This document shows positions 30,270-64,000 of a DNA stretch of 64,000 bases, piece by piece. The position numbers were made by a program, and so were the translations under genes. Below the pieces are notes generated by a model. That model did no database searches, was not told where the DNA came from, and was given only the letters and a program-made list of their open reading frames with translations. Each line of letters opens with the position of its first letter. Position 1 is the first letter of the stretch. Source of the DNA: the human T2T-CHM13v2.0 reference genome, Homo sapiens; contig CP086569.2 in the NCBI GenBank assembly GCA_009914755.4, forward strand, positions 10,336,001 to 10,400,000, written 5' to 3'.

Positions 30270-30627
30270 TATTGTCACATGTGTCCCTGTGAAAACAGTT
30301 CACCAACAGGCTTTGTGTGAGCAATAAGGCTGTTTATTTCACCTGTTTGCAGGTGGGCTGAGTCGAAGAAGGAGTCAGCAAAGGGTGATGGGATTTTCAT
30401 TAGTTCTTATAGGTTTGGGATAGGTGTACAAAGTACCTTCTTAATGGTGGGGGGGGAATATATTGTATCAGTTAGGGTGGGTCAGGAACAAATCACAATG
30501 GTGGAATGTCATCTGTTAAAGCTATTTTCACTTATTTTGTGGATCTTCAGTTGCTTCAGGCCATCTGGATGTACACTTGCAGGTCACAGGGGATATGATG
30601 GCTTAGCTCAGGCTCAGAGGCCTGACA
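30270..30627 (-). repeat. HERV-H 3' LTR (LTR7)
   Basis: It is about 92-94 percent identical to the 5' LTR. cctgaca lies at 30621-30627. The polyA signal is gtgaaataaacag on the minus strand. Confidence 0.8.
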
Positions 30628-33600
30628 TTCCTGTCTTCTTATATTAATAAGAAAAACAAAACAAAATAGTGGTGAAGTGTTGAGGAGGCAAAAATTTTGG
30701 GGGGTGGTATGGACAGATAATATGCGATGTTACTCAGGGCTACTTTGAGTGGGATTAGTGGCAGCATGGGAACCTACAGTGGGAGAGCTTAAGCTGAAGG
30801 AAGATTTGTGGTAAGGGGTGATATTGTGGGGTGATTAAAAGGACCATTTGTCATATAGAATGATTGGTGATGGCCAGGATACAGTTTTGCATGAATTGAG
30901 AAACTAAATGGAAACAAGGTCCGAATAGGAGAAGGAGAAAAACAAGTATTAAAAGACTAAGAACTGGGAGACCCAGGACATTGAATTAGAGAGTGTACAA
31001 GGGGGTTCAGCATAATTACTTATTTGGTTGGTGAGTTTTTGGGCTCTATCCTTTAGTTTTTTATGTTGTCATATACCAGGCCAGATTGATTTAGGTAAAA
31101 ACAACACTCTTCATTTAAAAACATACAGAGTCCCCCCCCCAACTTTTTTTTTTTTTTTTAGCAGTGAGTAAGTCAAGGACTCAGTGATTTGAGGAAAGAG
31201 AAATGCAAAGCCAGCAAATGTTTGTTAAAGAAAGATTAGAAAAGGCTAGGATAGAGTGAGTGAGATTGTTAGTGTGATGGAGATAGCTGGGGAGAGGTAG
31301 AGGGTGGCATAAGAATATAAGAATCAGAACAAAAATAAGAGTGAGTATAAAAGTAAAGAATAGGACGTTATCAGGGTGAAAGTATTGGAGAGCGCCCTGT
31401 CAGCAAAAATCATCTATCCACTGTAAGAGGGAGTCAAGAGTAGTGGATTCGGGTTAGTACCAGGAGATGTCCACTACGATGGTTTGGAGGAAAAGTGTAA
31501 ACTGGCAGTGTAAACAAGGGCAAGGGCACTTATGAGTAGTTGAGAATGGTGAATAGGAGTATAACTAGACAGAAGATAGTAAGGACGACAAGTTTTTGAG
31601 GTGTAGTCCAAGTAGTGGGGGTGACTGGCTAAAGCCCTGTTGTAAAGAGTAGGGTAAGGAAGAAGATACCTAATAAAAATGAAAGGATGTATTAGGCTTA
31701 TAAGGGTTTCTATTATCATTGAGGAATGCAAGTGAGTTTAAGGGAAGTAGGGGTGAGTACTTGCCACTTTCAGAAGGAAGAGGAGAAATCAGACTGTCTG
31801 ATGGGCACAGGTTTACTCTGGAATGATGAACCGAATGGTGGGTGGTGGTCCTGCAGATGAACAGCCATTTGGATACTATAGATGACTAAATGGGCTCCAG
31901 TCCACTGAGGTTGTAGAGTCTGAGGGGTCCGATTTTTAACGAGAACTGACTGTCAAGTTAAAGTGTTTTCATATAGCTGGGAATCTGGGGTAGGCAAAAG
32001 AAGATTAGCAGCTCAGTGAATATCCTGTCTAGCTTGCTGGAGGACTGGAAGATAATCACCTAGAGGGCCGGTGTCTGGAATGAGACTGGGGCCTAATAAG
32101 GCCTAATACAGGAACTCAAATGGCTGTACCCTGTAGCATCCCGAGGACAGGCCCGAATTCTGAGAAGGGCAATTGGTAAAAGTACTGTCCAGTCCTTTCT
32201 AAGTTGGAGGCTAAGCTTGGTGAGGTGTGGCTTTAAAAAATCATTAGTTCTTTCTTCCTTTCCTGAGGATTGAGGGTGATAAGGAGCATGAAGTTATTAT
32301 TGAATGCCAGGAGCCTGGGAGACTGCCTGAGTGATGTGACTGATAAAGGCTGGTCTGTTATCAGACTATACAGAGGTGGGAAGGGAAAACTGAGGAATTA
32401 TGTCTGACAGAAGGAAAGAAATGACTGTGGTGGCCTTCTCAGACCCTGTGGGAAAGGCCTCTACCCATCCAGTGAAAGTGTCTACCCAGACCAAGAGGTA
32501 TTTTAGTTTCCTGACTCAGGGCATGTGAGTAAAGTTAATTTGCCAGTCCTGGGCAGGGGCAAATCCCCCCACTTGATGGGTAGGGAAAAGAGGGGGCCTG
32601 AACAATCCCTGAGGTGTGGTAGAATAGCAGATGGAACACTGAGAAGTGATTTCCTTGAGGATAGATTTCCATGATGGAAAGGAAATGAGAGGTTCTAAGA
32701 GTCAGGCTAGTGGCTTGTAACCTACATGTAAGAGGTTATGAAATGATGACAGAATAGAATGGGCCTGTGAGGCTGGAGATATTTTCCTTGGTTCAAGAAC
32801 CATTTGCCTTGTGTGGGAAGAGATTGATATATGGAAGATTTAGGGGGAGAGTAGGTGGGAGTAAGCAATGAGAAGGAGAAAAAGTGGCCATGATGAACAG
32901 AAGTTGGAATGCTAGCTGCTTGTTTAGCTACCTTATCAGCATAAGCATTTTCTTGAGCAGTGGGATCTGATGCCTTTTGATGGCCCTTGTAGTGAATGAC
33001 TTCAGCTTCCTTTGGAAGTAAAGTGGCTTTAACAAGAGTTTTTATTAAGGAGGTATTAATGATGGAGGACCTAGCATAGTGAAGAAACCTCTTTCAGCCC
33101 ATATACAGCATGGTGGTGCAGGATATTGAAGGCATATTTAGAGGCAGTATAAATATTGACACATAGTCACCTTGCAAGAGTGAGGGACTGAGTTAAGACA
33201 ATGAATTTGGCTTGCTGAGAGGTATGGAGCAGGGCAGAGTGGTAGTCTCAATGATAGATGTGGAAGATACTATAATGTAGCCTGCCTTTGCTGGTGAGTG
33301 GCAATTAGGCCTGGTGGAACAGCCATCAATAAACCAAGTGTGATCAGGGTGAGGAACAGGAAAGAAGGAAATACAGGGAAATGGAGTGAATGTCAGGTGG
33401 ATCAGGGAGATACAGTCATGGGGGTCAGGTGTGATATCCGGAGTAATGTGGAAGGCTGGATTGAAGCCTGGGCCAGGAACAATGGTAATTGTGGGAGACT
33501 CAACAAAGACTGAGTATAGCTGAAGGAGCTGGAGGGCAGAAAGTATATGTGTCAGGGGTGAAGAAGAAAATAGATTTTGGAAGTTATGAGAACTGTAGAG

Positions 33601-34044
33601 ATTGAGTTGAGCATAGTTTGTAATTTTTGATAGCCACTAAAAGAATTAAAGCAGTGGCATCCACCACACACAGACATGAGGGCTAGGCTAAAACAGTAAG
33701 GTCAAGTTGTTTGGACAGAAAAGCTACAGGGTGCAGTCCCGGCTCTTGTGAAAGAATTCCAACCACATATCCCTGTACTTTGGATGGGTGTAATGAAAAA
33801 GGTTGGGATGAGCTAAGGAGAGCTAGTGTGGGAACAGCTTTTAGGGCTGTTTGTTAAGGAATGGAAAGGGGAGTGGGGAAAGTATTTAGGATTTATTGGG
33901 TCAGCTAGGTCTATCTAGAATAGAATAATGGGTTGTGGAGGGAGGTCTCATTGAGGATAGGAGAGTATATGGGTTTGGCACTACGAGGTGGATAGGCAAG
34001 ACAATTTTGTTGATAAGGTGCAGCTCCTGAACTAACCTGTAAGA

Positions 34045-34242
34045 CTAGTCTGGTGTTTGGACAGGTAAAATGGGGGAATTGTAAGGAGAGTTTGCAGGCT
34101 TTAAAAGGCCATTCTGTGACAGGTGAGTGATAACAGGCTTTAATCCTTTGAAAGCATGCTGTGGGATGGGATATTGGCATTGAGCAAGGTAAGGCTGATT
34201 AGGTTTTAATGAGATGGTAAGGGGTGCATCATCCATTGCCAA
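34045..34242 (-). other. HERV-H pol (reverse transcriptase N-terminal) remnant ORF
   Basis: The peptide ...LKPVITHLSQNGLLKPANSPYNSPILPVQTPD resembles the gammaretroviral RT motif L(V/L)PCQSPWNTPLLPVKKP. Confidence 0.55.
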
Positions 34243-34735
34243 GGAGGGAATAGATGTGTCCTATGCTTGTGGATAAAGGTAGGGAGATACAAGGAGAGGA
34301 TGTGAAGGCAGCTTTAAACTGGAGGAAAAGGTGGCAATGAGGTGTGGCTGTAGTCCAGGAATAGTCAGGGAAACAGATAATTTAGTTAAAATGTATCAAG
34401 CTAATATGGGAGCTAGGCAGGTGGGGATAACTAAAAAGGAATGCAGGAAAGAATGTATTCCAAGTTGGCACCAGAGTTGGACAGTTTTAAGAGGTTTAGA
34501 AGCCTGGCCATCAATACCCACAACAGTTATGGAAGCAAGGGAAACATGCCCTTGAAAAGAAGGTAATATGAAGTGTGTAGCTTCCATATTGATTAAGAAG
34601 GGGACGGACTTACCCTCCACTGCAAGAGTTACTCAAAACATCTGCGATTGTCCTGTAGGCTTCTGAGGTGATCAGGCAGCATCAGTCTTCAGCCGTTAAG
34701 CTGAGAAGATCTGGAAAGGAGTCAGTCAGAGAGCC

Positions 34736-35011
34736 TTAGGCCAGAGTTCCAGGGGCTCTGGGAGTGACTGCCGGGTGAGCTGGACAGTCTGATTTCCAGT
34801 GGGGTCCTGCACAATTGGGAGACAGCTTAGGAGGAATCCTGGGCTGTGGGCATTCCTTGGCCCAGTGGCCAGATTCCCAACACTTGAAGTAAGATCCTGG
34901 GGGAGGGAGTCCTGGAGGAATGCCTGGCCCCTGCGGTTTAGGTGTATTGGAGTTCTTGTGTGCTGGAGATGTGGCTGGGGTTTCTCTCACAGAGGAGGCA
35001 AGTAATTGCAA
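34736..35011 (-). other. HERV-H gag nucleocapsid remnant ORF (two Cys-His boxes)
   Basis: The ORF-track peptide contains KCWESGHWAKEC and CAGPHWKSDC (C-X4-H-X4-C). Confidence 0.6.
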
Positions 35012-36477
35012 CTATTCTCTATTATTGTACACCTTGAAAGTGAGGTCAATTAAGCCCTGTTGTGGGGTTGAGGGCCAGAATCTAAATTTTAGAGCTTCTC
35101 TAATGTCAGGAGCCAATTGGGTAATAAAATGCATATTGAGAATAAGATGTCCTTCTGGCCCCTCTGGGTTTAGGACAGTAAAGCAGCTAAGGGTTGTTGC
35201 CAAACAGGCCATGAACTGGGCTGGGTTTTTATATTTGATGAAAAAGATCTTAAATGCTAACTGATTTGGGAGAGGTTCGATAAAGAAAAAAGGAGCATTA
35301 ACCTTGACTATGCCTTTAGCTCCAGCCACCTCTTTAAGAGGAAATTATTGGCCAGATATTGGAGGGCTAGTTGTGGAACAAAAGTGTAAGCTGGACCAGG
35401 TGTGAGGAGGGGAGGAAATAGAAGGGTTATAAGGTGGGGGAGTGGAGGCTGAGGAAGAGTTGGAACCTGACTTAGCCTGGGGAGTTGGGGAGAGGTCAGA
35501 TGAGTCCATAGAAAAGGAGGATTCAAAGGATTCAGAGCTTGGGATGGACACTGAAGGAACAGACAGGAGAGAAAGAAGAAAGATTTGGGATTAGTCACAT
35601 TAGGAGCAGAGACTAGGGAGGGACCAATGTGTAAAAGAATTCTTGGACATCAGGCACATCAGACCATTTGCCCATTTTTTGACAAAAATTATCTAGATCT
35701 TATAGGATAGACAAATTGAAAGTGCCATTCTCTGGCCACTTGGAACTACTGTCGAGTTTGTATTGGTGCCACACGGTATTGCAGAAGAAAATAAGGCACT
35801 TAAGTTTTAGGTCAGGTGTGAGTTGAAGAAGTTTTAAGTTATTGAGAACACAGGCTAAGGGAGAAGAAGGGGGAATGGAGGGTAGAAGATTGCCCATAGC
35901 GAAGGAGGTAAGTTTAAAGATAAAGGAAGAAACATGGAGAAGGGGGTGAGCAGCCCTGGGCTGCAATGTGGGTGAGCAGCCAAAGCAGGTGTCCCTGCAA
36001 TTGACTTGCCACCAAGGGAATGTGAGTGAATGACCAAGGCAGGCATCCCTGTGGTCATCAGACACCAATGAAATGTGGGTGAATAATCAGACAGGCATCC
36101 CCGCAGTGATTAAACACCAAGGGAACACTTTCTTCCTGAGTCCGTGACTGGCACCACAGTTTTGGGTTCACAGGTAAAATGTGTCTCCTTGTCTCTACTA
36201 GAGAGGAAAAAGAATTAGAATTGGAAGTATAGAGAGATTGAAGAGTAGTGAGCAAGGGAGATTGAAGAGTAGTGAGAGAGGAAGATTGAAGGGTAGCAAG
36301 AGAGACTGGAGAAGAGTGAAAAGACCACTTATCCAATTTAAAATTGATGAGATATTTCTTGGGCTGGTTGGTCTGAGGACCCGAGGTCGTAGGTGGATCT
36401 TCTTAGGGAGTGAGGGCAAGGACAGGTAACTGGTCTCCTGAAGGAGTCCTCCTGTCCTGCGTTTCAGCACCACATGT

Positions 36478-36859
36478 CATGCATGTCCGTGTGAAGAGAG
36501 TCCACCAACAGGCTTTGTGTGAGCAACAAGGCTGTTTATTTCACCTGGGTGCAGGCTGAGTCTGAAAAAGGAGTCAGCTGAGGGTTGTGGGATTATCATT
36601 AGTTCTTATAGGTTTGGGATAGGTGTACAAAGTACCTTCTTAAGGGCGGGGGAGAATATTACAAAGTACCTCCTCAAGGGAGAGGGAGAATATATCATAT
36701 CAGTTAGGGTGGGGCAGCAACAAATCACAATGGTGGAATGTCATCAGTTAAGGCTATTTTCACTTCTTTTGTGGATCTTCAGTTGCTTCAGGCCATCTGG
36801 ATGTATACTTGCAGGTCACAGGTGATATGATGACTTAGCTTGGGCTCAGAGATCTGACA
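36478..36859 (-). repeat. HERV-H 5' LTR (LTR7) with internal ~38-bp tandem duplication
   Basis: It begins at ctgaca (36854-36859, reverse complement tgtcag) and ends at ...tctcttcacacggacatgcatga. An extra acaaagtacctcctcaagggagagggagaatat unit is absent from the 3' LTR. Confidence 0.8.
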
Positions 36860-52279: not shown

Positions 52280-53190
52280 CCAGGAGCCCCCTAACGAACT
52301 GCACGCAAAGGGCGCTGGGAGCCGCGCCACTACTGCCCACTTCCCGGCAAGACCAATCAGTGCGATGGTGGTGGGCGTCTCCCTGGGTGACACCTCCCCA
52401 GGCTGACCTGCATCACCAGCCCCCCGGGGTAAGCCTCCTCTGAGAAGCCCTCGCAGCTTGTGCCAGGTAGCGCTAGGTGCAGGCACAAGTGGGCTGCATG
52501 GCCTTTGGCATTGTGGGCATGGAAGCCCAGTGCCCTAACTGATATCCTGAGTATGGCAAGCTATTGACCCACAGGGAACACATGAAAACATCTCACTGCA
52601 TTAGGCAGGCCAGGTAGGTGGTACAGAATATTGCAGATCCAGAGGAGAACTCTCTCTGGCTGCTGAGGCGAGGGTGGCGGGGGTGGCCTGGGGTAAGTGG
52701 GTCGGGGCCAGCTCTTGGGAGGAAAGTCGCCTGGTTGTGCTGAGGTGGAATTCGTCTGCTCCAGAGGTCGGAACCCTGGCAAGCACTCTCGCAGGTCTAG
52801 GCAAATACAGGCTCCGAGTACCATGCTTCCTCCTTGAGAATGCTGTACTCCCAGGAGCATTCTAAAAGGCTTCGCATCCTATGTCCCGGGCACACTGGAG
52901 GCCAGCCGCCAGGGTTGGCTACCGACAGCCTGCGTGCCTGCTGTTGTGCACTGCCTTGCCGACCCAGAGGCTCCCGCACGTGCAGCAACGTCTGCAGTGC
53001 CTGCTGGCGGGGCTCTGAAAGCCCAGGACATGGGCCTCTAGATCCTGAACTCCTGTGCGCAGTTGACCCTGGTGGGGACCTGAGCCCCATGGCGAGAGTG
53101 GCGATCTGCGGGCCCAGCGGGGCCCTTCAGGAAACCTGGGTCCATGTAGGTGTGGTACTAGGTTCTCAGCAGGGTGAGGCCCACGGGACT
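52280..53190 (+). promoter_or_regulatory. TSPY-type 5' flank of copy C (paralog of 18290-19250), includes CCAAT/GTAAGC module at about 52330-52445
   Basis: The module is aagaccaatcagtgcgatggtggtgggcgtctccc ... ccccggggtaagcctcctctgagaag. Downstream, 52440-52930 aligns with 18560-19000 at about 80 percent. Confidence 0.4.
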
Positions 53191-53945
53191 TTCAGGGAGC
53201 AGGCCTCTTGTGGAGCAGCCCTCCTGTGGAGCAGCCCCCAGAGCCTAGGGGTGCTGGGGATGCGCTGGGCTGCGCAGGCCGGGGTCTGTCGGAGCACCCA
53301 GGAGGACACCATGTTCAGGCTGGAGGCTCTGCTGGAGAGGAAGGCCGGGGTACAGATCAAGGAGGAGGCCTTGGAAAAGGAGAAGGTGCTTATGGTGGAA
53401 GACCTAATGGCTGAGGTGGAGGTGGTGGTTGAGGAGGAGACCGATGTGAAGTGGCAGAAGGAGGACCAGTGGGCACAGCCTGGCCCTGGAGGCAGCACAC
53501 CCAGGCCGTCAATGAGCTCACTGGAGGTCTTCACTTGGAGCTGGGCTCCATGAATGCCTCAGGCCACAGGGCATCTCCAGCTTCTGGGCCAGAGCCATAT
53601 CCTTGCAGCAGCCCATTTGGGATGGCTGGCAGCAGGGGTTGGGCATCAGGCTTTGGGGGGGTTGTGCGGGATGGGTGGGGGGAGGAGCCAGGAGGGAGGC
53701 ACATGTGGTCAGCCAGGAGGCAGGGGATGGGGGACAGGTGGGAGCTGAGGTCAGTTTCCTGCAGATAGGAGGGCAGATTGCTGTCAGAGCCCTGGGAGCA
53801 GTTGATAGGGATGGGGAGCCAAGCACAGCACTCACAAGAGAGAATCGCGGCTCCAAGGACCCTTCACACACAGCACAAAGTTGAAGGGCATTTTTCCCTG
53901 GGAAAGTCCCTGGAGGAAGGGGACTCTGCACACCCATGCCAGGTA
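53190..53945 (+). pseudogene. TSPY: TSPY pseudogene fragment, copy C (exon 1 equivalent plus start of intron 1), truncated by alpha satellite
   Basis: It reads MFRLEALLERKAGVQIKEEALEKEKVLMVEDLMAEVEVVVEEETDVKWQKEDQWAQPGPGGSTPRPSMSSLEVFTWSWAP*. TSPY1 has [86 protein letters not shown]. Positions 53850-53945 align with copy A 19900-19995, then homology ends. Confidence 0.75.
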
Positions 53946-56900
53946 GAATCTGAAAGTGGACATTTGGAGCGCTTTGAGGCCTATGGTGAAAGAGGATATA
54001 TCTTCAGATTAAAACCAGACAGAAGAATTCTGAGAAACTGATTTGCGATGCATGCGTTCATCTCACAGAGTTGAACCTTTCTTTTGATAGAGCAGTTTGG
54101 AAACACTCTTTTTGTATAATCTGCAAATGGAGATTTAGAGCGCTTTGTGACCTATGGTAGAAAAGGAGATATCTTCACATAAAATCTAGATACAAGCAAT
54201 CTGAGAAACTTCTTTGTGATGTATGCATTCACCTGATAGAGATGAAACTTTCTTTTGATGTGCCAGTTTCGAAATACTCTTTTTGTTGAATCTGCAAGTG
54301 GACATTTGGAGCTCTTAAATGCCTAAGGTGGAAAAAGAAATATCTTCACATAAAAACTAGACAGAAGAATTCTGAGAACCTTCTTTGTGATGCATGCATT
54401 CATCTCACAGAGTTCAGTCTTTTTTTTGATTGAGGAGTTTGGAAGCACTGTTTTTGTAGAATCTGCAAGTGAATATTTGGAGCGCTTGGTGGCCTATGGT
54501 AGAAAAGGAAATGTCTTAACATAAAATCTACATGGAAGCAATCTGAGAAACTTCTTTGTGATGTGTGCATTCATCTCACAGAGTTAAACCTTTCTTTTGA
54601 TTGAGCAGTTTTGAAACTCTCTTTTTGTAGAATCTGCAAGTGGACATTTGGAGTGCTTTGATGCCTATGGTGGAAAAGGAAATATCTTCACATAAAAACT
54701 AGATAGAAGAATTCTGAGAAACTTCTTAGTGAAGAGTGGGTTCATTTTACAGAGTTGAAACTTTCTTTTGATTGAGCAGTTTTGAACCTCTCTTTTTCTA
54801 GAATCTGCAAGTGGACATTTGGAGAGCTTTGAGGCCTACGGTGGAAAAGGAAATACCTTCAGGTAGAAACTAGACAGAAGAATTCTGAGAATCTTCTTTG
54901 TCATGTGTGCGTTCATCTCACAGAGTTAACTTTTTCTTTTGATTGAGCAGTTTGGAAAAACCCTTTTTGTAGAATCTGCAAGTGGACATTTGGAGCGCTT
55001 TGCAGCCTATGGTAGAAAAGGAAATATCTTCACATGAAATCTAGACAGAAGCAATCTGAGAAACTTCTTTTTGTTGTCTGCATTCATCTCAGAGAGTTAA
55101 ACCTTTCCTTTGATGGTGCAGTTTTAAAACTCTCCTTTTGTAGAATCTGAAAGTGGACACTTGGAGCACTTTGAGGCCTGTGGTGGAAGAGGAAATATCT
55201 TCAGATTAAAACCAGACAGAAGAATTCTGAGAAACTTATTTGTGATGCGTGCGTTCGTCTCACAGAGTTGAACTTTTCTTTTGATTGAGCAGTTTGGAAA
55301 CACTCTTCTTGTATAATCTGCAAATGGAGATTTGGAGCACTTTGCAGACTATGGTAGAAAAGGAAATATCTTCACATAAAATCTAGATAGAAGCAACCTG
55401 AGAAACTTCTTTGTGATGTGTGCATTCATCTCACAGATTTGAAACTTTCTTTTGATGGACCAGTTTTGAAATGCTCTTTTTGTTGAATCTGCAAGTGGAT
55501 ATTTGGAGCTCTTTCAGGCCTATGGTGGAAAAGGAAATATCTTCACATAAAAACTAGACAGAAGAATTCTGAGAAACTTCTTTGTGATGTGTGCATTCAT
55601 CTCACAGAGTTCAGTCATTCTTTTGATTGAGCAGTTTGGAAACACTCTTTTTGTAGAATCTGCAAGTGGATATTTGGAGCACTTGGCGGCCTATGGTAGA
55701 AAAGGAAATATCTTAACATAAAACCTACACAGAAGCAACCTGAGAAACTTCTTTGTGATGTGTACATTCATCTCCCAAAGTTGAACTTTTCTTTGGAAGG
55801 AAGAGTTTTGAAATACACTTTTTGTAGAATCTGCAAGTGGACATTTTGAGCATCTTGAGGCCTATGGTGGAAAAGGAAATATCTTCACATAAAAACTAGA
55901 CAGAAGAATTCTGAGAAACTTCTTAGTGATGTGTGGGTTCATTTCACAGAGTTGAAGCTTTCTTTTGATTGAGCAGTTTGGAAACACTCTTTGTGTAGAA
56001 TCTGCAAGTGAATATTTAGAGCGCTATACAGTCTATGATATAAAAGGAAATATCTTCACATAAAATCTAGATAGAAGTAATCTGAGAAACTTCTTTGTGA
56101 TGTGTGCATTCTTCTCACAGAGTTGAACTTTTCTTTTGGCTCAGCAGTTTTTGACCTCTCTTTTTCTAGAATCTGCAAGTGGACTTTCGGGGCGCTTTGA
56201 TGCCTATGGTGGAAAAGGAAATATCTTCATGTAAAAACTAGATGGAAGCTTTCTGAGAAATTTATTTGTGATGTGTGCGTTCACCCCAGAGAGATGAACC
56301 TTTCTTTTGATTGACCAGTTTGGAAACACTCTTTTTGGAGAATGTGCAAGTGGACATTTGGAGCGCTTTGCGGTCTATGTTAGAAAAGGAAATATCTTCA
56401 CATAAAATCTAGACAGAAGCATTCTGATAAACTTCTTTGTGATGTGTGCAGTGATCTCACAAATTTAAACCTTTGTTTTGATTGAGTAGTTTTGAAACTC
56501 TCTTTTTGAAGAATCCGTAAGTGGACATTTGGAGCGAATTGAAGCCTATGGTGGAAAAGGAAATATCTTTGGATAAATACTAGACAGAATAATTCTGGGA
56601 AACATCTTTGAGATGTGTGCATTCATCTCACAGAGTTTAACGTTTCTTTTGTGTGAGCAGTTTGGAAACACTCTTTTCATAGAATCTGCAAGTGGGCATT
56701 TGGAGTGCTTTGCAGCCTATGGTAGAGAAGGAAATATCTTCACATAAAATCTAGACAGAAGCATTCTGATAAACTTCTTTGTGATGTGTGCATTCATCTC
56801 ACAGAGTTGAACCTTTCTTTTGAAGGAGCAGTTTTGAAATATGCTTTTTGTAGAATCTGCAAGTGGACATTTCGAGCTCCTTGAGGCTTATGGTGGAAAA

Positions 56901-59900
56901 GAAAATATCTTCACACACACAAAAAAAGACAGAAGAATTCTGAGGAACTTTTTTGTGATGTGTGCATTCATCTCAAACAGCTGAACCTTTCTTTTGGTTG
57001 AGCAGTTTGGAAACAGTCTTTTTGTAGAATCTGCAAGTGGACATTTGGAGCGCTATGTGGCCTATGGTAGAACAGGAAATATCTTCACATAAAATCTAGA
57101 CAGAAGCAATCTGAGAAACTTCTGTGGGATGTGTGAATTCATCTCCCAGAGTTAACCCTTTCTTTGGATTGGGCACTTTCGACACTCTCTTTATGCAGAA
57201 TTTGCAAGTGGACTTTTGGAAGGCTTTGACCCCTATGGTGAAAAAGGAAATAACTTCACGTGAAATCTAAACCAAAGCAATATGAAAAATTTCTTTTTGA
57301 TGTGTGCATTCATCTCACAGAGTTAAACCTTTCCTTTGATTGTGCAGTTTTGAAAGGCTCTTTTTGTAGAATCTGCAAGTGGATATTTGAAGCACTTTGA
57401 GGCCTATGGTGGAAGAGGAAATATCTTCAGATTAAAACTTGACAAGAATTCTGCAAAACTTACTTGTGATGTGTGCGTGCATCTCAAATAGTTGAACCTT
57501 TCTTTTGATTGAGCATTAGGAAACACTTTTTTTGTAGAATCTGCAAATTGGGATTTGGAGCGCTCTGCAGCCTGTGGTAAAAAAGGAGATATCTTCACAT
57601 AAAATACAGACAGAAGCAATCAGAGAAACTTCTTTGTGATGTGTGCATTCATCTCACAGAGTTGAAAATTTCTTTTGATGGACTAGTTTTGAAATACTCT
57701 TTTTGTTGAATCTGCAAGTGGACATTTGGAGCTCTTTGAGGCCTATGGTGGAAAAGGAAATCCTTGACATAAAAACTAGACAGAAGTATTCTGAGAAACC
57801 ACTTTGTGATGTGTGCATTCATCTCACAGAGTTGAGCATTTCTTTTGATTGAGGAGTTTGGAAACACTCTTTTTGTAGAATCTGCAGGTGGACATTTGAA
57901 GCTTTTTGTGGCCTATCATAGAAAAGGAAATATTTTAACATAAAATCTAGATAGAGGAAATCTGAGAAACTTCGTTGTGATGTGTGCATTCATCTCCCAG
58001 AATTGAAACTTTCTTTTGATTGAGGAGTTTGGAAACAATCTTTTTGTAGAACGTGCAAGTGGACATTTGGAGTGCTTTGTGGCCTATGGTAGAAAAGGGA
58101 ATACCTTTATATAAGAACTAGACAGAAACATTCTGAGAAACTTATCTGGATGTGTGCATACATCTCCCAGAGTTGAACCTTTCTTGTGATTGTGCAGTTT
58201 GGAAACACTCTTTTTGTAAAATCTGCAAGTGGACATTTTGAGCGCTTTGCGGCCTATGGTAAAAAAGGAAATATCTTCACATGAAATCTAGACAGAAGAT
58301 ATCTGAGAAACTTCTTGGTGATGTGTACATTCATCTCACAGAGTTATACTTTTCTTTTCATTGAGTAGTTTTTTAAACTCTCTTTTTGTAGAATCTGCAT
58401 GTGGACATTTGGAGCGCTTTGAGCCCTGTGTTGGAAAAGGAAATATCTTCACATAAAAACTAGACTAAAGATATCTGAGAAACTTCTTTGTGATGTGTGC
58501 ATTCATCTCCCAGAGTTCAACCTTTCTTTTGATGGACCAGTATTGAAATATTTTTTTTTTTTTTAGAATCTGCAAGTGGACATTTCGAGCACCTTGAGGA
58601 CTATGGTAGAAAATGATATATCTTCACATAAAAATTAGACAGAAGAATTATGAGAAACTTCTTCATGATGTGTGCATTCATCTCACAGAGTTGAACCTTC
58701 CTTTGACTGAGCAGTTTGGAAACCCTCTTTTTGTAGAATCTGCAAGTGAATATTTTGAGTGCTTTGAGGCTGATGGTAGAAAAGGAAACACCTTCACATA
58801 GAATCTCCACAGAAGCAATCTGAGAAACTACTTTGTGATGTGTGCATTCATCCCACAGCTTTAAATGTTTCTTTTGCTTGAGCATTTTTGAAACTCTCTT
58901 TTCATAGAATCTGCAAGTGGACATTTGGAGAGCTTTGTGCCCTGCAGTAGAAAAGGAAATATCTTCACATAAAATCTTAACAAAAGCAATCTGAGAAACT
59001 TCTTTGAGATGTATGCATTCATCTCACAGAGATAAACCTTTCTTTTGATTGGACAGTTTTGAAATTCTCTTTTTGTAGATTCTGCAATTGGACGTTTGGA
59101 GCGTTTTGAGGCCTATGGTGGTAAAGGAAATATCTTCACATATAAACTAGACAGAACAATTCTGGGAAATTCCTTTGTGATGTTTGCATTCATCTCATGG
59201 AGTTGAACCTTTCTTTTGATTGAGCAGTTTGGAAACACTCTTTTTGTAGGATCTGGCAATTGGTCATTTCGAGTCCTTTGCAGCCAATGGTAGAAAAGGA
59301 AGTATCTTCACACAAAATCTAGACAGAAACAATCTGAGAAACTTGTTTCTGATGTGTGCATTCATCTCACAGAGTCAAACCTTTCTTTTGATTGAGAAGT
59401 TCTGAAACTTTCTTTTTGTAGAATCTGCAAGTGGGCATTTGGAGCGCTTTGAGGCCTATGGTGGAAAAGGTAATATCCTCACATAAAAATTACACAGAAG
59501 AATTCTGACAAACTTCTTTGTGATGTGTGTGTTCATCTCACAGAGTTGAGCCTTTCTTTTGATTGAACAGTTTGGAAACACTGTTTATGTAGAATCTGCA
59601 AGTGGACATTTGGAGCACTTTGAGGCCTGTGGTAGAAAAGGAAATACCTTCACATAAAATCTAGACAGAAGCAATCTGAGAAACTTCTTTCTGATGTGTG
59701 CATTCATCCTACAGAGTTAAATGGTTCTTTTGATTGAGCATTTTTGAAACTATCTTTTCGTAGAATCTGCAAGTGGAAATTTGGAGCGCTTTGAGGCTTA
59801 TGGTGGAAAAGGAAATATCTTCACATAAAAACTAGACAGAAGAATTCTGAGAAACTACTTTGTAATGTGAGCGTTCATCTCACAGAGTTGAATCTTTCTT

Positions 59901-62900
59901 TTGATTGAGCAGTTTGGAAACATCGTTTTTGTAGAATCTGCAAGTGGACATTTGGAGCTCTTTGCAGCCTATGGTAGAAAAGGAAATATCTTCACATAAT
60001 ATCTAGAAAGAAGCAATCTGAGAAACTTCTTTTTGATGTGTGCATTCATCTCACAGAGTTAAACATTTGTTTTGATTGAGCAGTTTTGAAACTCTCTTTC
60101 TGTAAAATCTGCAAGTAGACATTTGAAGCGCTTTGAGGTCTATGTTGGAAAAGGAAATATCTTCTTAGAAAATGTAGACCGAAGAATTCTGAGAAACTCC
60201 TTTGTGATGTGTGCATTCATCTCACAAAGTTGAATTTTTCTTTTGATTGAGCAGTTTGGAAACATTCTTTTTGTAGAATCTGCAAGTGGAAGTTTGGAGA
60301 GCTTTGCGGCTTATGGTACAGAAGGAAATATCTTCACATGCTATCTATACAGAAGCAATCTGAGAAGCTTCTTTGTGATGTATTTATCTCACAGAGATAA
60401 ATCTTTCTTTTGACAGAGCAGTTTAGAAACTATCTGTAGAATCTGCAAGTGGACATTTAGAGCGCTTTGTGGCCTATGGTAGAAAAGGTAACATCTTCAC
60501 ATAAAATCTAGACAATAGCAATCTGGGAAACTTCTTTGTGAAGGGTGCATTCATCTCACAGAGTTAACCTTTTCTTTTGATTGAACAGTTTGGAAACTCT
60601 CTTGTTGTAGTATCTGCAAGTGGACATTTGGAGCACTTTGATGCCTGTGGTGGAAAAGGAAATATCTTCACATAAAAATAGATAGAAGCATTTTGAGAAA
60701 CTTCTCTGTGAGGTGTGCGTTCATCTCCCAGAGTTGAACCTTTCTTTTGATGGACTAGTATTGACATACTCTTTTTGTAGAATCTGCAAGTGGACTTTTC
60801 TAGCGCCGTGTGGCCTATGGTGGAAAATGATATATCTTCAAATAAAATCTAGACAGAAGAAATCTGAGAAACTTCTTTGTAATGAGTGCATTCGTCTCAC
60901 TGAGTTAAACATTTCTTTTGATTGAGCAGTTTTGAAACTCTCTTTTTGTAGTATCTGCAAGTGGACATTTGGAATGCTTTGAGGCCTGTGGCGGAAAAGG
61001 ACACATCTTCACATAAAACCTAGACAGAAGAATTCAGAGTAACTTCTCTGTGATGTGTGGGCACATCTCACAGAGTTGAAAATTTCTTTTGATTGAGCAG
61101 TTTGGAAACACTCTTTTTGTAGAATCTGCAAGTGGAGATTTGGAGCGCTTTGTGGTCTATGGTAGAAAAGGAACTATATTCACATAAAATCTAGACAGAA
61201 GCAATCTGAGAAACTTCTTCATGATGTATACATTCATGTCACAGAGTTAAACTTTTCTTTTGATTGAGCACTTTGAAACACTCTTTTTGTAGAAGCTGCA
61301 AGTGGACATTTGGAGCACTTTCAGGCCTATGGTAGAAAAGGAAATATCTTCACATAAAAACTACACAGAAGAATTATGAGAAACTTCTCTGTGATGCGTG
61401 AGTTGATCTCACAGAGTTGAACATTTCTTTTGATTGAGCAGTTTGGAAACACTCTTTTTGTAGAATCTGCAAGTGGACATTTGGAGAGCTTTGCAGCCTA
61501 TGGCAGAAAAGGAAATGTCTTCACATAATATCTAGACATAAGCAATCTGAGAAACTTCTTTGTGATGTGTGCATTCATCTCACAGAGTTAAAACTTTCTT
61601 TTGATTGAGCAGTTTTGAAACTCTCTTTTTGTAGAATCTGAAAGTGGACATTAGTATCGCTTTGAGGCCTATGGTGGAAAAGGAAATATCTTCACATAAA
61701 AACTAGTCAGAAGAATTCTTTGTGATGTGTGTGTTCACCTCACAGAGTTGAACCTTTCTTTTGATTGAGAAATTTGGAAACACTCTTTTTGTAGAATCTG
61801 CAAGAGGATATTTGGAGCCATTTGCGGCCTAAGTTCGAAAAGGAAATATCTTCACATAAAATCTAGACAGAAGCAATCTGATAAACTTCTTCATGACGTG
61901 TGCATTCATCTCACAGAGTTAAACATTTCTTTTGATTGAGCAGTTCTGAAAGTCTCTTTTTGTAGAATCTGCAAGTGGACCTTTGGAGCGCTTTGTGGCC
62001 GATGGTAGAAAAGGAAATATCTTCACATAAAATCTAGACAGAAGCAATCTGAGAAAATTCTTTGTGATGAGGGCTTTCATCTCACAGTTAAACCATTCTT
62101 TTGATTAACCAGTTTTGAAACTCTCTTTTGGTAGAATCTGCAAGTGGACATTTGGAGCGCTTTGAGGTCTATGGTGGAAAAAGAAATATGTTCACATATA
62201 AACCAGACAGAATAATTCTGATAAACTTCTTTGTGATGTGGGCTTTCATCTCACAGAGTTGAACCTTTCTTTTGATTGAGCAGTTTTGAAACACTCTTTT
62301 TGTAGGATCTGCATGTGGACATTTGTAGCGCTTTGTGGCCTATGTTAGAAAAGGAAATATCTTCTCATAAATTCTAGACAGCAGCAATCTGAGAAACTTC
62401 TTTGCGATGTGTGCATTCATCTCACAGAGTTCAACATTTGTTTTGATTGAGCAGTTTTGAAACTCTCTTTTTGTAGAATGTGCAATTGGAAATTTGGAGC
62501 GATTTAAAGCCTATGGTGGAAAAGAAAATATCTTCACATAAAAAGTACACAGAAGCATTCTGAGAAACTTCTTTGTGATGTGTACATTCATCTCACAGTG
62601 TTGAACCTTTCTTTTGATTGAGCAGCTTTGAAACACTCTTTTTGTAGTATCTGCTAGTGGATACATGGAGCGATTTGAGGTCTATTGTGGAAAAGGAAAT
62701 ATCTTCACATAAAAACTACAAAGAAGCATTCTTTCAAACTTATTTGTTATGAGTGAATTCATCACACAGAGTGGAAGCTTTATTTTGATTGATCAGTTCT
62801 GAAACACTCTTTTTGTCGAATCTGGAAGTGGATATTTGGAGGGCTTTGAGGCTTATTTTGGAAAGGAACTATCTTCACATAAAAACTACACAGAAGCATT

Positions 62901-63619
62901 ATGAGATACTTCTTTGTTATGTGTCTATTCAACTCACAGAGTGGAAACTATCTTTTGATGGGGCACTTTTAAATCTCTCTTTTTGCAGAATCTGCAAGCG
63001 GATATTTGGAGCGTTTTGAGGCTTACCGTGGAAAAGCAAAAATCTTCACCTAAAAACTACACAGAAACATTCTGAGAAACTTCTTTGTCACGTGTGTATT
63101 CAACTCACAAGGTCGAACCTATCTTTTGATTGACCAGTTTTGAATCTCTCTTCTTGCAGAATCTGCAAGTGGATATTTGCAGAGTTTTTAGGCCTATTGT
63201 GGAAAAGGAAATGTCTCCACATAAAAACTACACAGAGAAATTCTGAGAAACTTCTTTGTGATGTGTGCATTCAACTCAGAGAGCTGGACCGATCTTTTGA
63301 TTGAGCAGTTTTGAAACACTCTTTTTGTAGAATCTGCAAGTGGACACTTGGAGCGCTTTGAGGCCTATGGTGGAAAAGGTAGTATTTTCCAATATAAACT
63401 ATACAGAATAATTCTGAGAAACTTCTTTGTGACATGTGTGTTCATCTCCCAGAGTTGAACCTTTCTTTTCACTGAGCAGCTTGGACACACTCTTTTTGTA
63501 GAATCTGCAAGTGGACATTTGGAGCACTTTGCAGCCTAAGGCAGAAAAGGAAATATCTTCATATAGAATCTAGACAGAAGCAATCTGAGAAACTTCTTTG
63601 TGATGTGTGCATTCATCTC
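53946..63619 (+). repeat. Alpha satellite (~171-bp monomers), divergent monomeric array, consensus orientation
   Basis: Monomers read ...aatctgcaagtggacatttggagcgctttgaggcctatggtggaaaaggaaatatcttcacataaaaactagacagaagaattctgagaaacttctttgtgatgtgtgcattcatctcacagagttgaacctttcttttgattgagcagtttggaaacactctttttgtag... Adjacent monomers differ by roughly 10-30 percent. Confidence 0.95.
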
Positions 63620-64000
63620 GAAACAGCTCATTGAAAAGAAAGGTTCAACTCTGTGTGATAGATGCACCCATCACAAAGAAATTTCTCTGAATGTTTCTGT
63701 GTAGTTTTTATGTGAAGACATTTGCTTTTCCACAATAGGCCTCAAAACACACCAAATATCCACTTGCAGATTCTACAAAAAGAGTGTTTGATAACTGCTG
63801 AATCATAACATAGGTTCAACCCTGTGAGATAAATGTACACATCACAAATAAGTTTCTCATAATGCTTCTCTGTAGTTTTTATTTGAATATATTTCCTTTT
63901 CCACCATAGGCCACAAAGGACCCCAAATATCCAATGGCAGTAACTACAAAAAGAGAGATTCAAAACTGCTCAATCAAAAGATAGGTTCAACTTTGTGAGT
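63620..64000 (-). repeat. Alpha satellite in inverted orientation (continues past window end)
   Basis: From 63620 the monomers are the reverse complement: gaaacagctcattgaaaagaaaggttcaactctgtgtgatagatgcacccatcacaaagaaatttctc... Confidence 0.9.

What the first reader, a model, noticed from the sequence alone, without database searches (positions are those of the whole stretch)
63560..63700. Orientation flip of alpha satellite at 63619/63620 forming an asymmetric palindromic junction
The plus-orientation monomer reads ...ctttgtgatgtgtgcattcatctc and is immediately followed by gaaacagctcattgaaaagaaaggttcaactctgtgtgatagatgcacccatcacaaag. The second string is the reverse complement of the same monomer from about 35 nt further along (...acagagttgaacctttcttttcaatgagctgtttc). 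Both arms therefore come from the same monomer region, with the segment between them deleted. This is a hairpin-like inversion breakpoint. Such junctions mark rearrangement events in pericentromeric satellite and are potential cruciform or fragile sites.
Basis: seen in the sequence. Interest (0 to 1): 0.5.

Follow-up and report, generated by a model that had tools for sequence, protein, structure and literature searches.

The report
Strand flip in decayed alpha satellite
The 171-bp centromere-flanking repeat (alpha satellite) really does reverse direction at 63619/63620, but this is an ordinary old inversion scar of a kind already catalogued in large numbers in this DNA, not a fresh hairpin or a likely fragile site.

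Summary
Monomeric alpha satellite runs in + orientation from 53943 to 63619 (56.6 monomers of 171 bp). From 63620 to the window end it runs in - orientation (2.2 monomers). The + arm stops at position 3 of my monomer model. The - arm stops at position 38, or 42 if the 4 nt TCTC at 63616-63619 is shared. The junction is therefore out of phase by 35-39 nt and has at most 2-4 nt of microhomology.

The two arms are not copies of each other. Mirror-partner monomers are 78-80% identical, ranks 40/56 and 28/56, which is no better than random monomer pairs. The - arm matches nothing in the visible + array above 85%. This excludes a recent fold-back duplication and a fold-back read artefact.

The most likely origin is an old two-break inversion, or an inverted juxtaposition, sealed by non-homologous end joining in a decayed, HOR-free, CENP-B-box-free pericentromeric layer. 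Published T2T work states that divergent alpha satellite contains many such inversions, and about 90% of alpha-satellite strand switches lie in monomeric regions.

With a 39-nt spacer and about 80% arm identity, cruciform extrusion in duplex DNA is unlikely. Only 380 nt of the inverted arm are visible. Its extent, age, chromosome and read support could not be tested here.

The parts
53943..63619 (+). Monomeric alpha satellite array in + orientation. It holds 56.6 monomers, almost all 171 bp, with mean pairwise identity 0.82. There is no higher-order periodicity and no CENP-B box, and 52 monomers carry an A-type (pJalpha-like) box.
63446..63616 (+). Last complete + monomer (p56), model positions 1-171.
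   Evidence: 183.9 bits, E 7.9e-58
63616..63619 (.). TCTC, the zone of breakpoint ambiguity or possible microhomology. It reads as model positions 171,1,2,3 on the + arm (4/4 match) or 42-39 on the - arm (3/4 match).
   Evidence: alignments
63620..63657 (-). Truncated - monomer covering model positions 1-38. It is the unpaired asymmetric centre ('spacer') of the inverted repeat.
   Evidence: (I3: 39 nt between arms)
63658..63828 (-). First complete - orientation monomer (m1). Best match to any + monomer is 84.8% (p54). It is 78.4% identical to its mirror partner p56.
63829..63999 (-). Second - orientation monomer (m2). The window ends here, so the extent of the inverted block is unknown.
63274..64000 (.). 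Imperfect inverted repeat in mirror register: arms 63274-63617 and 63657-64000, 79% complementary. As a single strand it folds into a long mismatched hairpin (-47.1 kcal/mol for 63540-63735, z = -8.4).

Best explanation
This is one end of an old inversion inside a decayed, HOR-free ('monomeric') alpha-satellite layer next to a primate centromere. Two double-strand breaks fell at unrelated monomers and at different positions within the 171-bp unit (model position ~3 on one side, ~38-42 on the other). The intervening segment was rejoined in reverse by non-homologous end joining, using at most 2-4 nt of microhomology. The result is a strand switch with a 35-39-nt phase offset. It looks palindromic only because every alpha monomer is ~80% like every other. 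It is a passive structural scar with no function of its own. Shown: the strand switch, the phase offset, the minimal microhomology, the lack of mirror symmetry and the monomeric nature of the array. Inferred: the two-break end-joining mechanism, the old age, and that the far end lies beyond the window.
For: The strand switch is seen independently by TRF, the repeat finder and the monomer profile. The join is out of phase, with <=4 nt of imperfect shared sequence. Homologous recombination between monomers cannot produce that, so the join was illegitimate.

Mirror-partner identity is 78.4% and 79.5%, ranks 40/56 and 28/56. The mirror dimer is 0.789, rank 30/55. The arms are therefore not sister copies. 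The best match of the - dimer to any + dimer is 0.831, lower than 95% of the + dimers' own best matches (median 0.868). The - arm therefore comes from outside the visible 10 kb.

The array is monomeric. Identity is flat at 0.81-0.83 for lags 1-20, there is no CENP-B box, and A-type boxes occur in 52 + and 2 - monomers.

The literature agrees. [quoted passage not shown] About 89.6% of alpha-satellite strand switches lie in monomeric regions (10.64898/2026.07.22.740206). Inverted segments within monomeric layers on Xq are described in PMC2729386 Text S1.
Against: Only 380 nt of the inverted arm are in the window. The second breakpoint, which would prove an inversion rather than an inverted insertion, is not seen. 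No read-level or independent-assembly support could be obtained: the junction 24-mer and a 27-mer from the - arm were absent from the metagenome and prokaryote-genome contig collections. ORFs across or next to the junction were not on record. With only two full - monomers, the mirror-symmetry test cannot detect a fold-back older than the divergence among the monomers themselves. Microhomology of 2-4 nt does not separate NHEJ, MMEJ and replicative template switching.
Confidence: 0.72

Rival explanations
1. Edge of an inverted insertion or duplicative transposition. A block of alpha satellite from another part of the pericentromere, or from another chromosome, was pasted in reverse orientation. 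In that case 63619/63620 is an insertion or segmental-duplication boundary, not an inversion end.
For: The - arm is somewhat more distant from the + array than + monomers are from each other. Its mean identity is 0.79 against a median of 0.82, and only 5-6 of 56 + monomers are as low. Its best dimer match is 0.831 against a median of 0.868. The join is out of phase and non-homologous, which fits either model.
Against: Two monomers are too few to call a different layer. Both arms are 171-bp A-type monomers of the same general kind. No donor copy or second boundary is available.
Confidence: 0.12
2. Assembly artefact: a chimeric join of two alpha-satellite regions, or a collapsed or misjoined contig end, gives a false strand switch.
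For: Satellite DNA is the classic place for mis-joins. No read evidence is available here, and no independent copy of the junction was found.
Against: The common fold-back artefact (a missed-adapter or chimeric long read) produces an exact reverse-complement copy of the adjacent sequence. Here the arms are 79% identical in mirror register, and the - arm has no match above 85% in the window. Monomers that are ~20% divergent from one another are effectively unique sequence for long-read assemblers. Real strand switches are frequent in exactly this kind of array.
Confidence: 0.08
3. Fossil fold-back (hairpin) inverted duplication. A break at model position ~38-42 was resected, the 3' end snapped back on 2-4 nt of microhomology and primed synthesis. 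This made a palindrome with a ~39-nt loop that has since diverged.
For: The geometry fits: inverted arms, a short asymmetric spacer made entirely of one arm, and a possible GA/GA-A microhomology at the turn. The first 30 bp next to the spacer pair at 87%.
Against: There is no excess similarity of mirror partners over random monomer pairs: ranks 40/56, 28/56, and dimer rank 30/55. The 87% near the spacer falls in the most conserved part of the monomer. A fold-back old enough to erase all mirror signal would have to predate most of the divergence among the monomers themselves.
Confidence: 0.05

Closest known systems
Strand switches (inversion breakpoints) in divergent/monomeric alpha satellite, as catalogued in T2T-CHM13 and pangenome centromere studies (10.1101/2021.07.12.452052; 10.64898/2026.07.22.740206)
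   Same: There is an abrupt change of monomer orientation inside a HOR-free, ~80%-identity, CENP-B-box-free alpha-satellite array next to non-satellite DNA. This is the compartment where ~90% of alpha-satellite strand switches are reported.
   Different: Nothing detectable. I could not map the window to a chromosome, so I cannot say whether this particular switch is already in the annotation tracks.
Inverted sub-segments of monomeric layers on Xq (Shepelev et al. 2009, PMC2729386, Text S1)
   Same: [quoted passage not shown] Monomer length of 171 bp, pure A-type boxes and monomeric arrangement match the features listed for the 'yellow'/M1 (SF4) layer (Table 1).
   Different: Layer assignment was not tested against reference consensus monomers. 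The chromosome is unknown.
Fold-back inverted duplications and cruciform-prone palindromes (closely spaced, highly similar inverted repeats; Alu-IR model, PMC10164571)
   Same: Inverted arms are separated by a short spacer. The single strand folds into a long hairpin (z = -8.4).
   Different: The arms are ~80% identical, not near-identical. The spacer is 39 nt, and mismatches occur within 4 bp of the centre. There is no mirror symmetry of monomer variants. In duplex DNA these parameters abolish or greatly reduce inverted-repeat instability. In long single-stranded DNA, repeats of >=75% identity can still interact.

Membership tests
Alpha satellite (primate centromeric 171-bp satellite) | Head-to-tail tandem monomers of ~171 bp | tested here: met
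   TRF gives period 171, 56.7 copies and 80% matches. Monomer lengths are almost all 171.
Alpha satellite (primate centromeric 171-bp satellite) | Sequence match to the canonical alpha-satellite consensus | not testable with these tools
   No repeat library (Dfam/RepBase/HumAS-HMMER) is available. The window-derived consensus reads as canonical alpha satellite from my own knowledge (e.g. ...TTGTAGAATCTGCAAGTGGA...CTGAGAAACTTCTTTGTGATGTGTGCATTCA...). A primate host is supported by an L1 ORF2 fragment with E 2e-69 to human ORF2p.
Monomeric (HOR-free) alpha-satellite layer | No higher-order periodicity; monomers ~70-90% identical at all lags | tested here: met
   Mean identity is 0.81-0.83 at every lag from 1 to 20. 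The overall mean is 0.819, range 0.70-0.94.
Monomeric (HOR-free) alpha-satellite layer | Pure A-type monomers (pJalpha-type box), no CENP-B boxes | tested here: met
   There are 0 matches to NTTCGNNNNANNCGGGN on either strand. A-box-like sites occur in 52 + and 2 - monomers.
Monomeric (HOR-free) alpha-satellite layer | Assignment to a named suprachromosomal family or layer (e.g. SF4/M1) | not tested
   Only length (171 bp), A-type boxes and monomeric arrangement agree with the 'yellow'/M1 row of Table 1 in PMC2729386.
Satellite strand switch / inversion breakpoint | Adjacent monomers of the same satellite on opposite strands | tested here: met
Satellite strand switch / inversion breakpoint | A second, reciprocal breakpoint delimiting the inverted segment | not testable with these tools
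   The window ends 380 nt after the switch. No external copy of the locus was found.
Fold-back inverted duplication (palindrome) | Arms are mirror-image copies of each other: partner monomers much more alike than non-partners | tested here: not met
   Mirror partners are 78.4% and 79.5% identical, ranks 40/56 and 28/56. The mirror dimer is 0.789, rank 30/55.
Fold-back inverted duplication (palindrome) | Short spacer with microhomology at the turn | tested here: inconclusive
   The spacer is 39 nt. At most 2 perfect nt, or 3 of 4, are shared, which is not more than chance would give.
Cruciform-forming / fragile palindrome | Near-perfect arms with little or no spacer | tested here: not met
   Arm identity is 79-80%, the spacer is 39 nt, and the longest perfect run is 18 bp. 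Thresholds come from the Alu-IR work cited in PMC10164571.

The most novel reading that the evidence does not exclude
The junction could be the surviving centre of a very old fold-back (breakage-fusion-type) event at an ancestral centromere. Alternatively, it could be one end of an inversion that is still polymorphic or lineage-specific and not yet in any annotation. In either case it would be a datable marker of pericentromere rearrangement.
Probability: 0.05. Interest if true: 0.3.

Novelty: already known. Interest (0 to 1): 0.08.

Why it matters
It matters little beyond bookkeeping. Strand switches in monomeric alpha satellite are a documented, frequent by-product of the decay of dead centromere layers. 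This one adds a base-resolution example showing an out-of-phase join with minimal microhomology, consistent with end joining rather than homologous exchange. Such junctions are useful as unique markers for mapping reads in satellite DNA, for checking assemblies, and for dating layers if the orthologous junction is found in other apes. Nothing here suggests a functional element or an unusual instability hotspot.

Tried and rejected
(1) I looked for independent copies of the junction in public contigs, hoping for human contamination. The exact 24-mer across the junction and a locus-specific 27-mer from the - arm both gave 0 hits in metagenome contigs and genome contigs. This says nothing either way.

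(2) I looked for the junction in assemblies of public sequencing runs through ORF products. The 43-aa and 34-aa ORFs spanning the junction and the 73-aa ORF in the - arm are not on record.

(3) I tried to assign the suprachromosomal family using the supplements of Shepelev et al. 2009.

(4) I tried to identify the chromosome from the flanking 54 kb. The long ORFs in the GC-rich regions have no Pfam match, and there is no Rfam family in the window. Only a LINE-1 ORF2 fragment was recognised. The chrY suggestion is untested. T2T-Y has only ~49 kb of non-DYZ3 alpha satellite (366 kb total minus the 317-kb DYZ3 array), which neither supports nor excludes it.

(5) Recent fold-back duplication and fold-back read artefact are rejected on the mirror-symmetry test.

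(6) Recombination between monomers as the origin of the join is rejected because the arms meet 35-39 nt out of phase.

Full report
OBSERVATION. Tandem Repeats Finder reports a 171-bp array from 53943 to 63619 (56.7 copies, 80% matches). It reports a separate 171-bp array from 63621 to 63999 whose consensus is the reverse complement of the first. The repeat finder reports long inverted matches between everything left of 63619 and everything right of it. In the mirror register the arms are 63274-63617 and 63657-64000: 344 nt, 79% complementary, 39 nt apart.

I built a profile HMM from the window's own monomers. It finds 57 + strand hits tiling 53943-63616 and two full-length - strand hits at 63999->63832 and 63828->63662 (E about 1e-45). 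It finds nothing elsewhere in the 64 kb. The strand flip is real and far beyond chance.

ANATOMY OF THE JUNCTION. I phased the profile so that the last complete + monomer (63446-63616) covers model positions 1-171. The + arm then continues for three more bases, CTC (63617-63619), which are model positions 1-3. On the other strand, the monomers 63999->63829 and 63828->63658 are followed by a truncated monomer running 63657->63620, which covers model positions 1-38. The alignment can be extended over 63619->63616 (GAGA against model gaaa, positions 39-42).

The four bases TCTC (63616-63619) can be read as part of either arm (4/4 on +, 3/4 on -). Microhomology at the join is at most 2-4 nt, which is no more than chance. 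The unpaired centre of the inverted repeat (63618-63656) is made entirely of the extra piece of the - arm. Nothing needs to have been deleted.

WHAT KIND OF SATELLITE. The 56 complete + monomers are almost all 171 bp long. Their mean pairwise identity is 0.819 (range 0.70-0.94), and identity is flat at 0.81-0.83 for every lag from 1 to 20, so there is no higher-order repeat. There is no CENP-B box on either strand. An A-type (pJalpha-like) box is present in 52 + and both - monomers. These features describe monomeric, A-type, 171-bp alpha satellite. They match the features listed for the old 'yellow'/M1 layer by Shepelev et al. (PMC2729386, Table 1), but I could not test the family assignment against reference consensus monomers.

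The array begins abruptly in mid-monomer at 53943 against GC-rich non-satellite DNA. The flanking 54 kb contains a LINE-1 ORF2 fragment (E 2e-69 to human ORF2p) and a decayed LTR element. The window is therefore a primate arm-to-pericentromere transition.

ARE THE ARMS COPIES OF EACH OTHER? This question separates a fold-back (hairpin) origin, or a fold-back sequencing artefact, from a plain inversion breakpoint.
- Mirror partners. The first full - monomer (m1) is 78.4% identical to its mirror partner p56, rank 40 of 56. The second (m2) is 79.5% identical to p55, rank 28 of 56. The mirror dimer scores 0.789, rank 30 of 55.
- Best matches anywhere. The best match of m1 to any + monomer is 84.8% and of m2 is 84.2%. 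Both lie inside the ordinary + versus + distribution, whose 75th-95th percentile is 0.84-0.88.
- Distance of the - arm. The best in-register match of the - dimer to any + dimer is 0.831. That is lower than the best match of 95% of + dimers, whose median is 0.868. The mean identity of the - monomers to the + array (0.79) is matched or undercut by only 5-6 of the 56 + monomers.

The - arm is therefore not a copy of the neighbouring sequence, nor of anything in the visible 10 kb. The junction looks palindromic only because all alpha monomers resemble each other at about 80%. This excludes a recent fold-back duplication. It also excludes the usual fold-back read artefact, which would give an exact reverse complement.

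MECHANISM. The arms meet 35-39 nt out of phase and share at most 2-4 nt, so the join cannot come from homologous exchange between monomers. It is an illegitimate join. The simplest history is two double-strand breaks in the array, with the intervening segment religated in reverse by non-homologous or microhomology-mediated end joining. 63619/63620 would be one of the two resulting junctions, and the other lies beyond the window. A replicative template switch would leave the same scar, and an inverted insertion of an alpha block from elsewhere cannot be told apart with 380 nt. The lack of any arm similarity above background, together with the ~18% divergence of the layer, suggests the event is old, but its age is inferred and not measured.

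COMPARISON WITH WHAT IS KNOWN. [quoted passage not shown] It quantifies inversion breakpoints (strand switches) per Mb for divergent alpha satellite and describes flanking layers accumulating 'mutations, inversions, TE insertions' (10.1101/2021.07.12.452052). A 2026 survey of about 8000 centromeres finds that ~89.6% of alpha-satellite strand switches lie in monomeric regions (10.64898/2026.07.22.740206). Shepelev et al. describe an inverted sub-segment of a monomeric layer on Xq and list inversion among the events that cut segments off from homogenisation (PMC2729386). The present junction is an ordinary member of this known class.

CRUCIFORM / FRAGILITY CLAIM. As a single strand, 63540-63735 folds into a long mismatched hairpin (-47.1 kcal/mol, z = -8.4), as any inverted repeat would. 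In the mirror register the arms pair at 87% over the first 30 bp and 80% over 120 bp. The longest perfect run is 18 bp, there are mismatches 4-5 bp from the centre, and the spacer is 39 nt.

For 320-bp Alu inverted repeats in yeast duplex DNA, widening the spacer from 12 to 20 bp lowers recombination ~40-fold. A single central mismatch reduces it, and instability disappears at 75% homology. Only in long single-stranded DNA do repeats of >=75% identity still interact efficiently (PMC10164571). Cruciform extrusion here is therefore unlikely, and a residual fold-back risk exists only if the region becomes extensively single-stranded. The same holds for every one of the many strand switches in monomeric satellite.

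WHAT COULD NOT BE DONE. No human or primate genome, read set or repeat library was available. Attempts to find independent copies of the junction in public contigs or gene-call indexes found nothing, which is uninformative. Mis-assembly therefore remains formally open. I rate it low because ~20%-divergent monomers are effectively unique for long-read assembly, and because such switches are common in reality.

VERDICT. It is an inversion-type breakpoint, but not a hairpin of one monomer on itself, not a deletion, and not a credible cruciform site. It belongs to an already known class of feature and is of low interest.

Noticed in passing
window 30273-36859: Two ~590-nt direct repeats lie 6.2 kb apart and are 86-96% identical in pieces. 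The first begins TGTCAC... They look like the LTR pair of a decayed endogenous retrovirus. The interior has a strong G-over-C skew (0.34-0.36) and no ORF of 130 aa or more.
   Followed up: partly
window 45203-45601 (+): A 132-aa ORF is a LINE-1 ORF2 C-terminal fragment, E 2.2e-69 to human L1 ORF2p (8sxt_A residues 1139-1260). This supports a primate origin for the window.
   Followed up: yes
window 53943: The alpha-satellite array starts abruptly in mid-monomer (model position 53) directly against 61%-GC non-satellite DNA (52-54 kb). There is no transitional or older 172-bp layer in between.
   Followed up: partly
window 18000-22000 and 52000-54000: Two GC-rich blocks (56-61% GC, CpG-island-like) lie in otherwise AT-rich DNA. 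Their long ORFs (e.g. 20209-20922, 52834-53553) have no Pfam match. A perfect (CCACCT)x7.8 microsatellite lies at 52010-52056.
   Followed up: partly
window 60221-60553 and 61579-61737: A few + monomers carry small deletions (lengths 167, 167 and 160 bp) and a few carry small insertions (174, 175 bp). No transposon interrupts the 10-kb array.
   Followed up: no
window 53943-63619: A handful of non-adjacent + monomers are 92-94% identical to each other (p35/p44, p9/p22, p6/p35, p1/p8) with no regular spacing. They are probably just the copies closest to the consensus and not a hidden higher-order repeat.
   Followed up: partly
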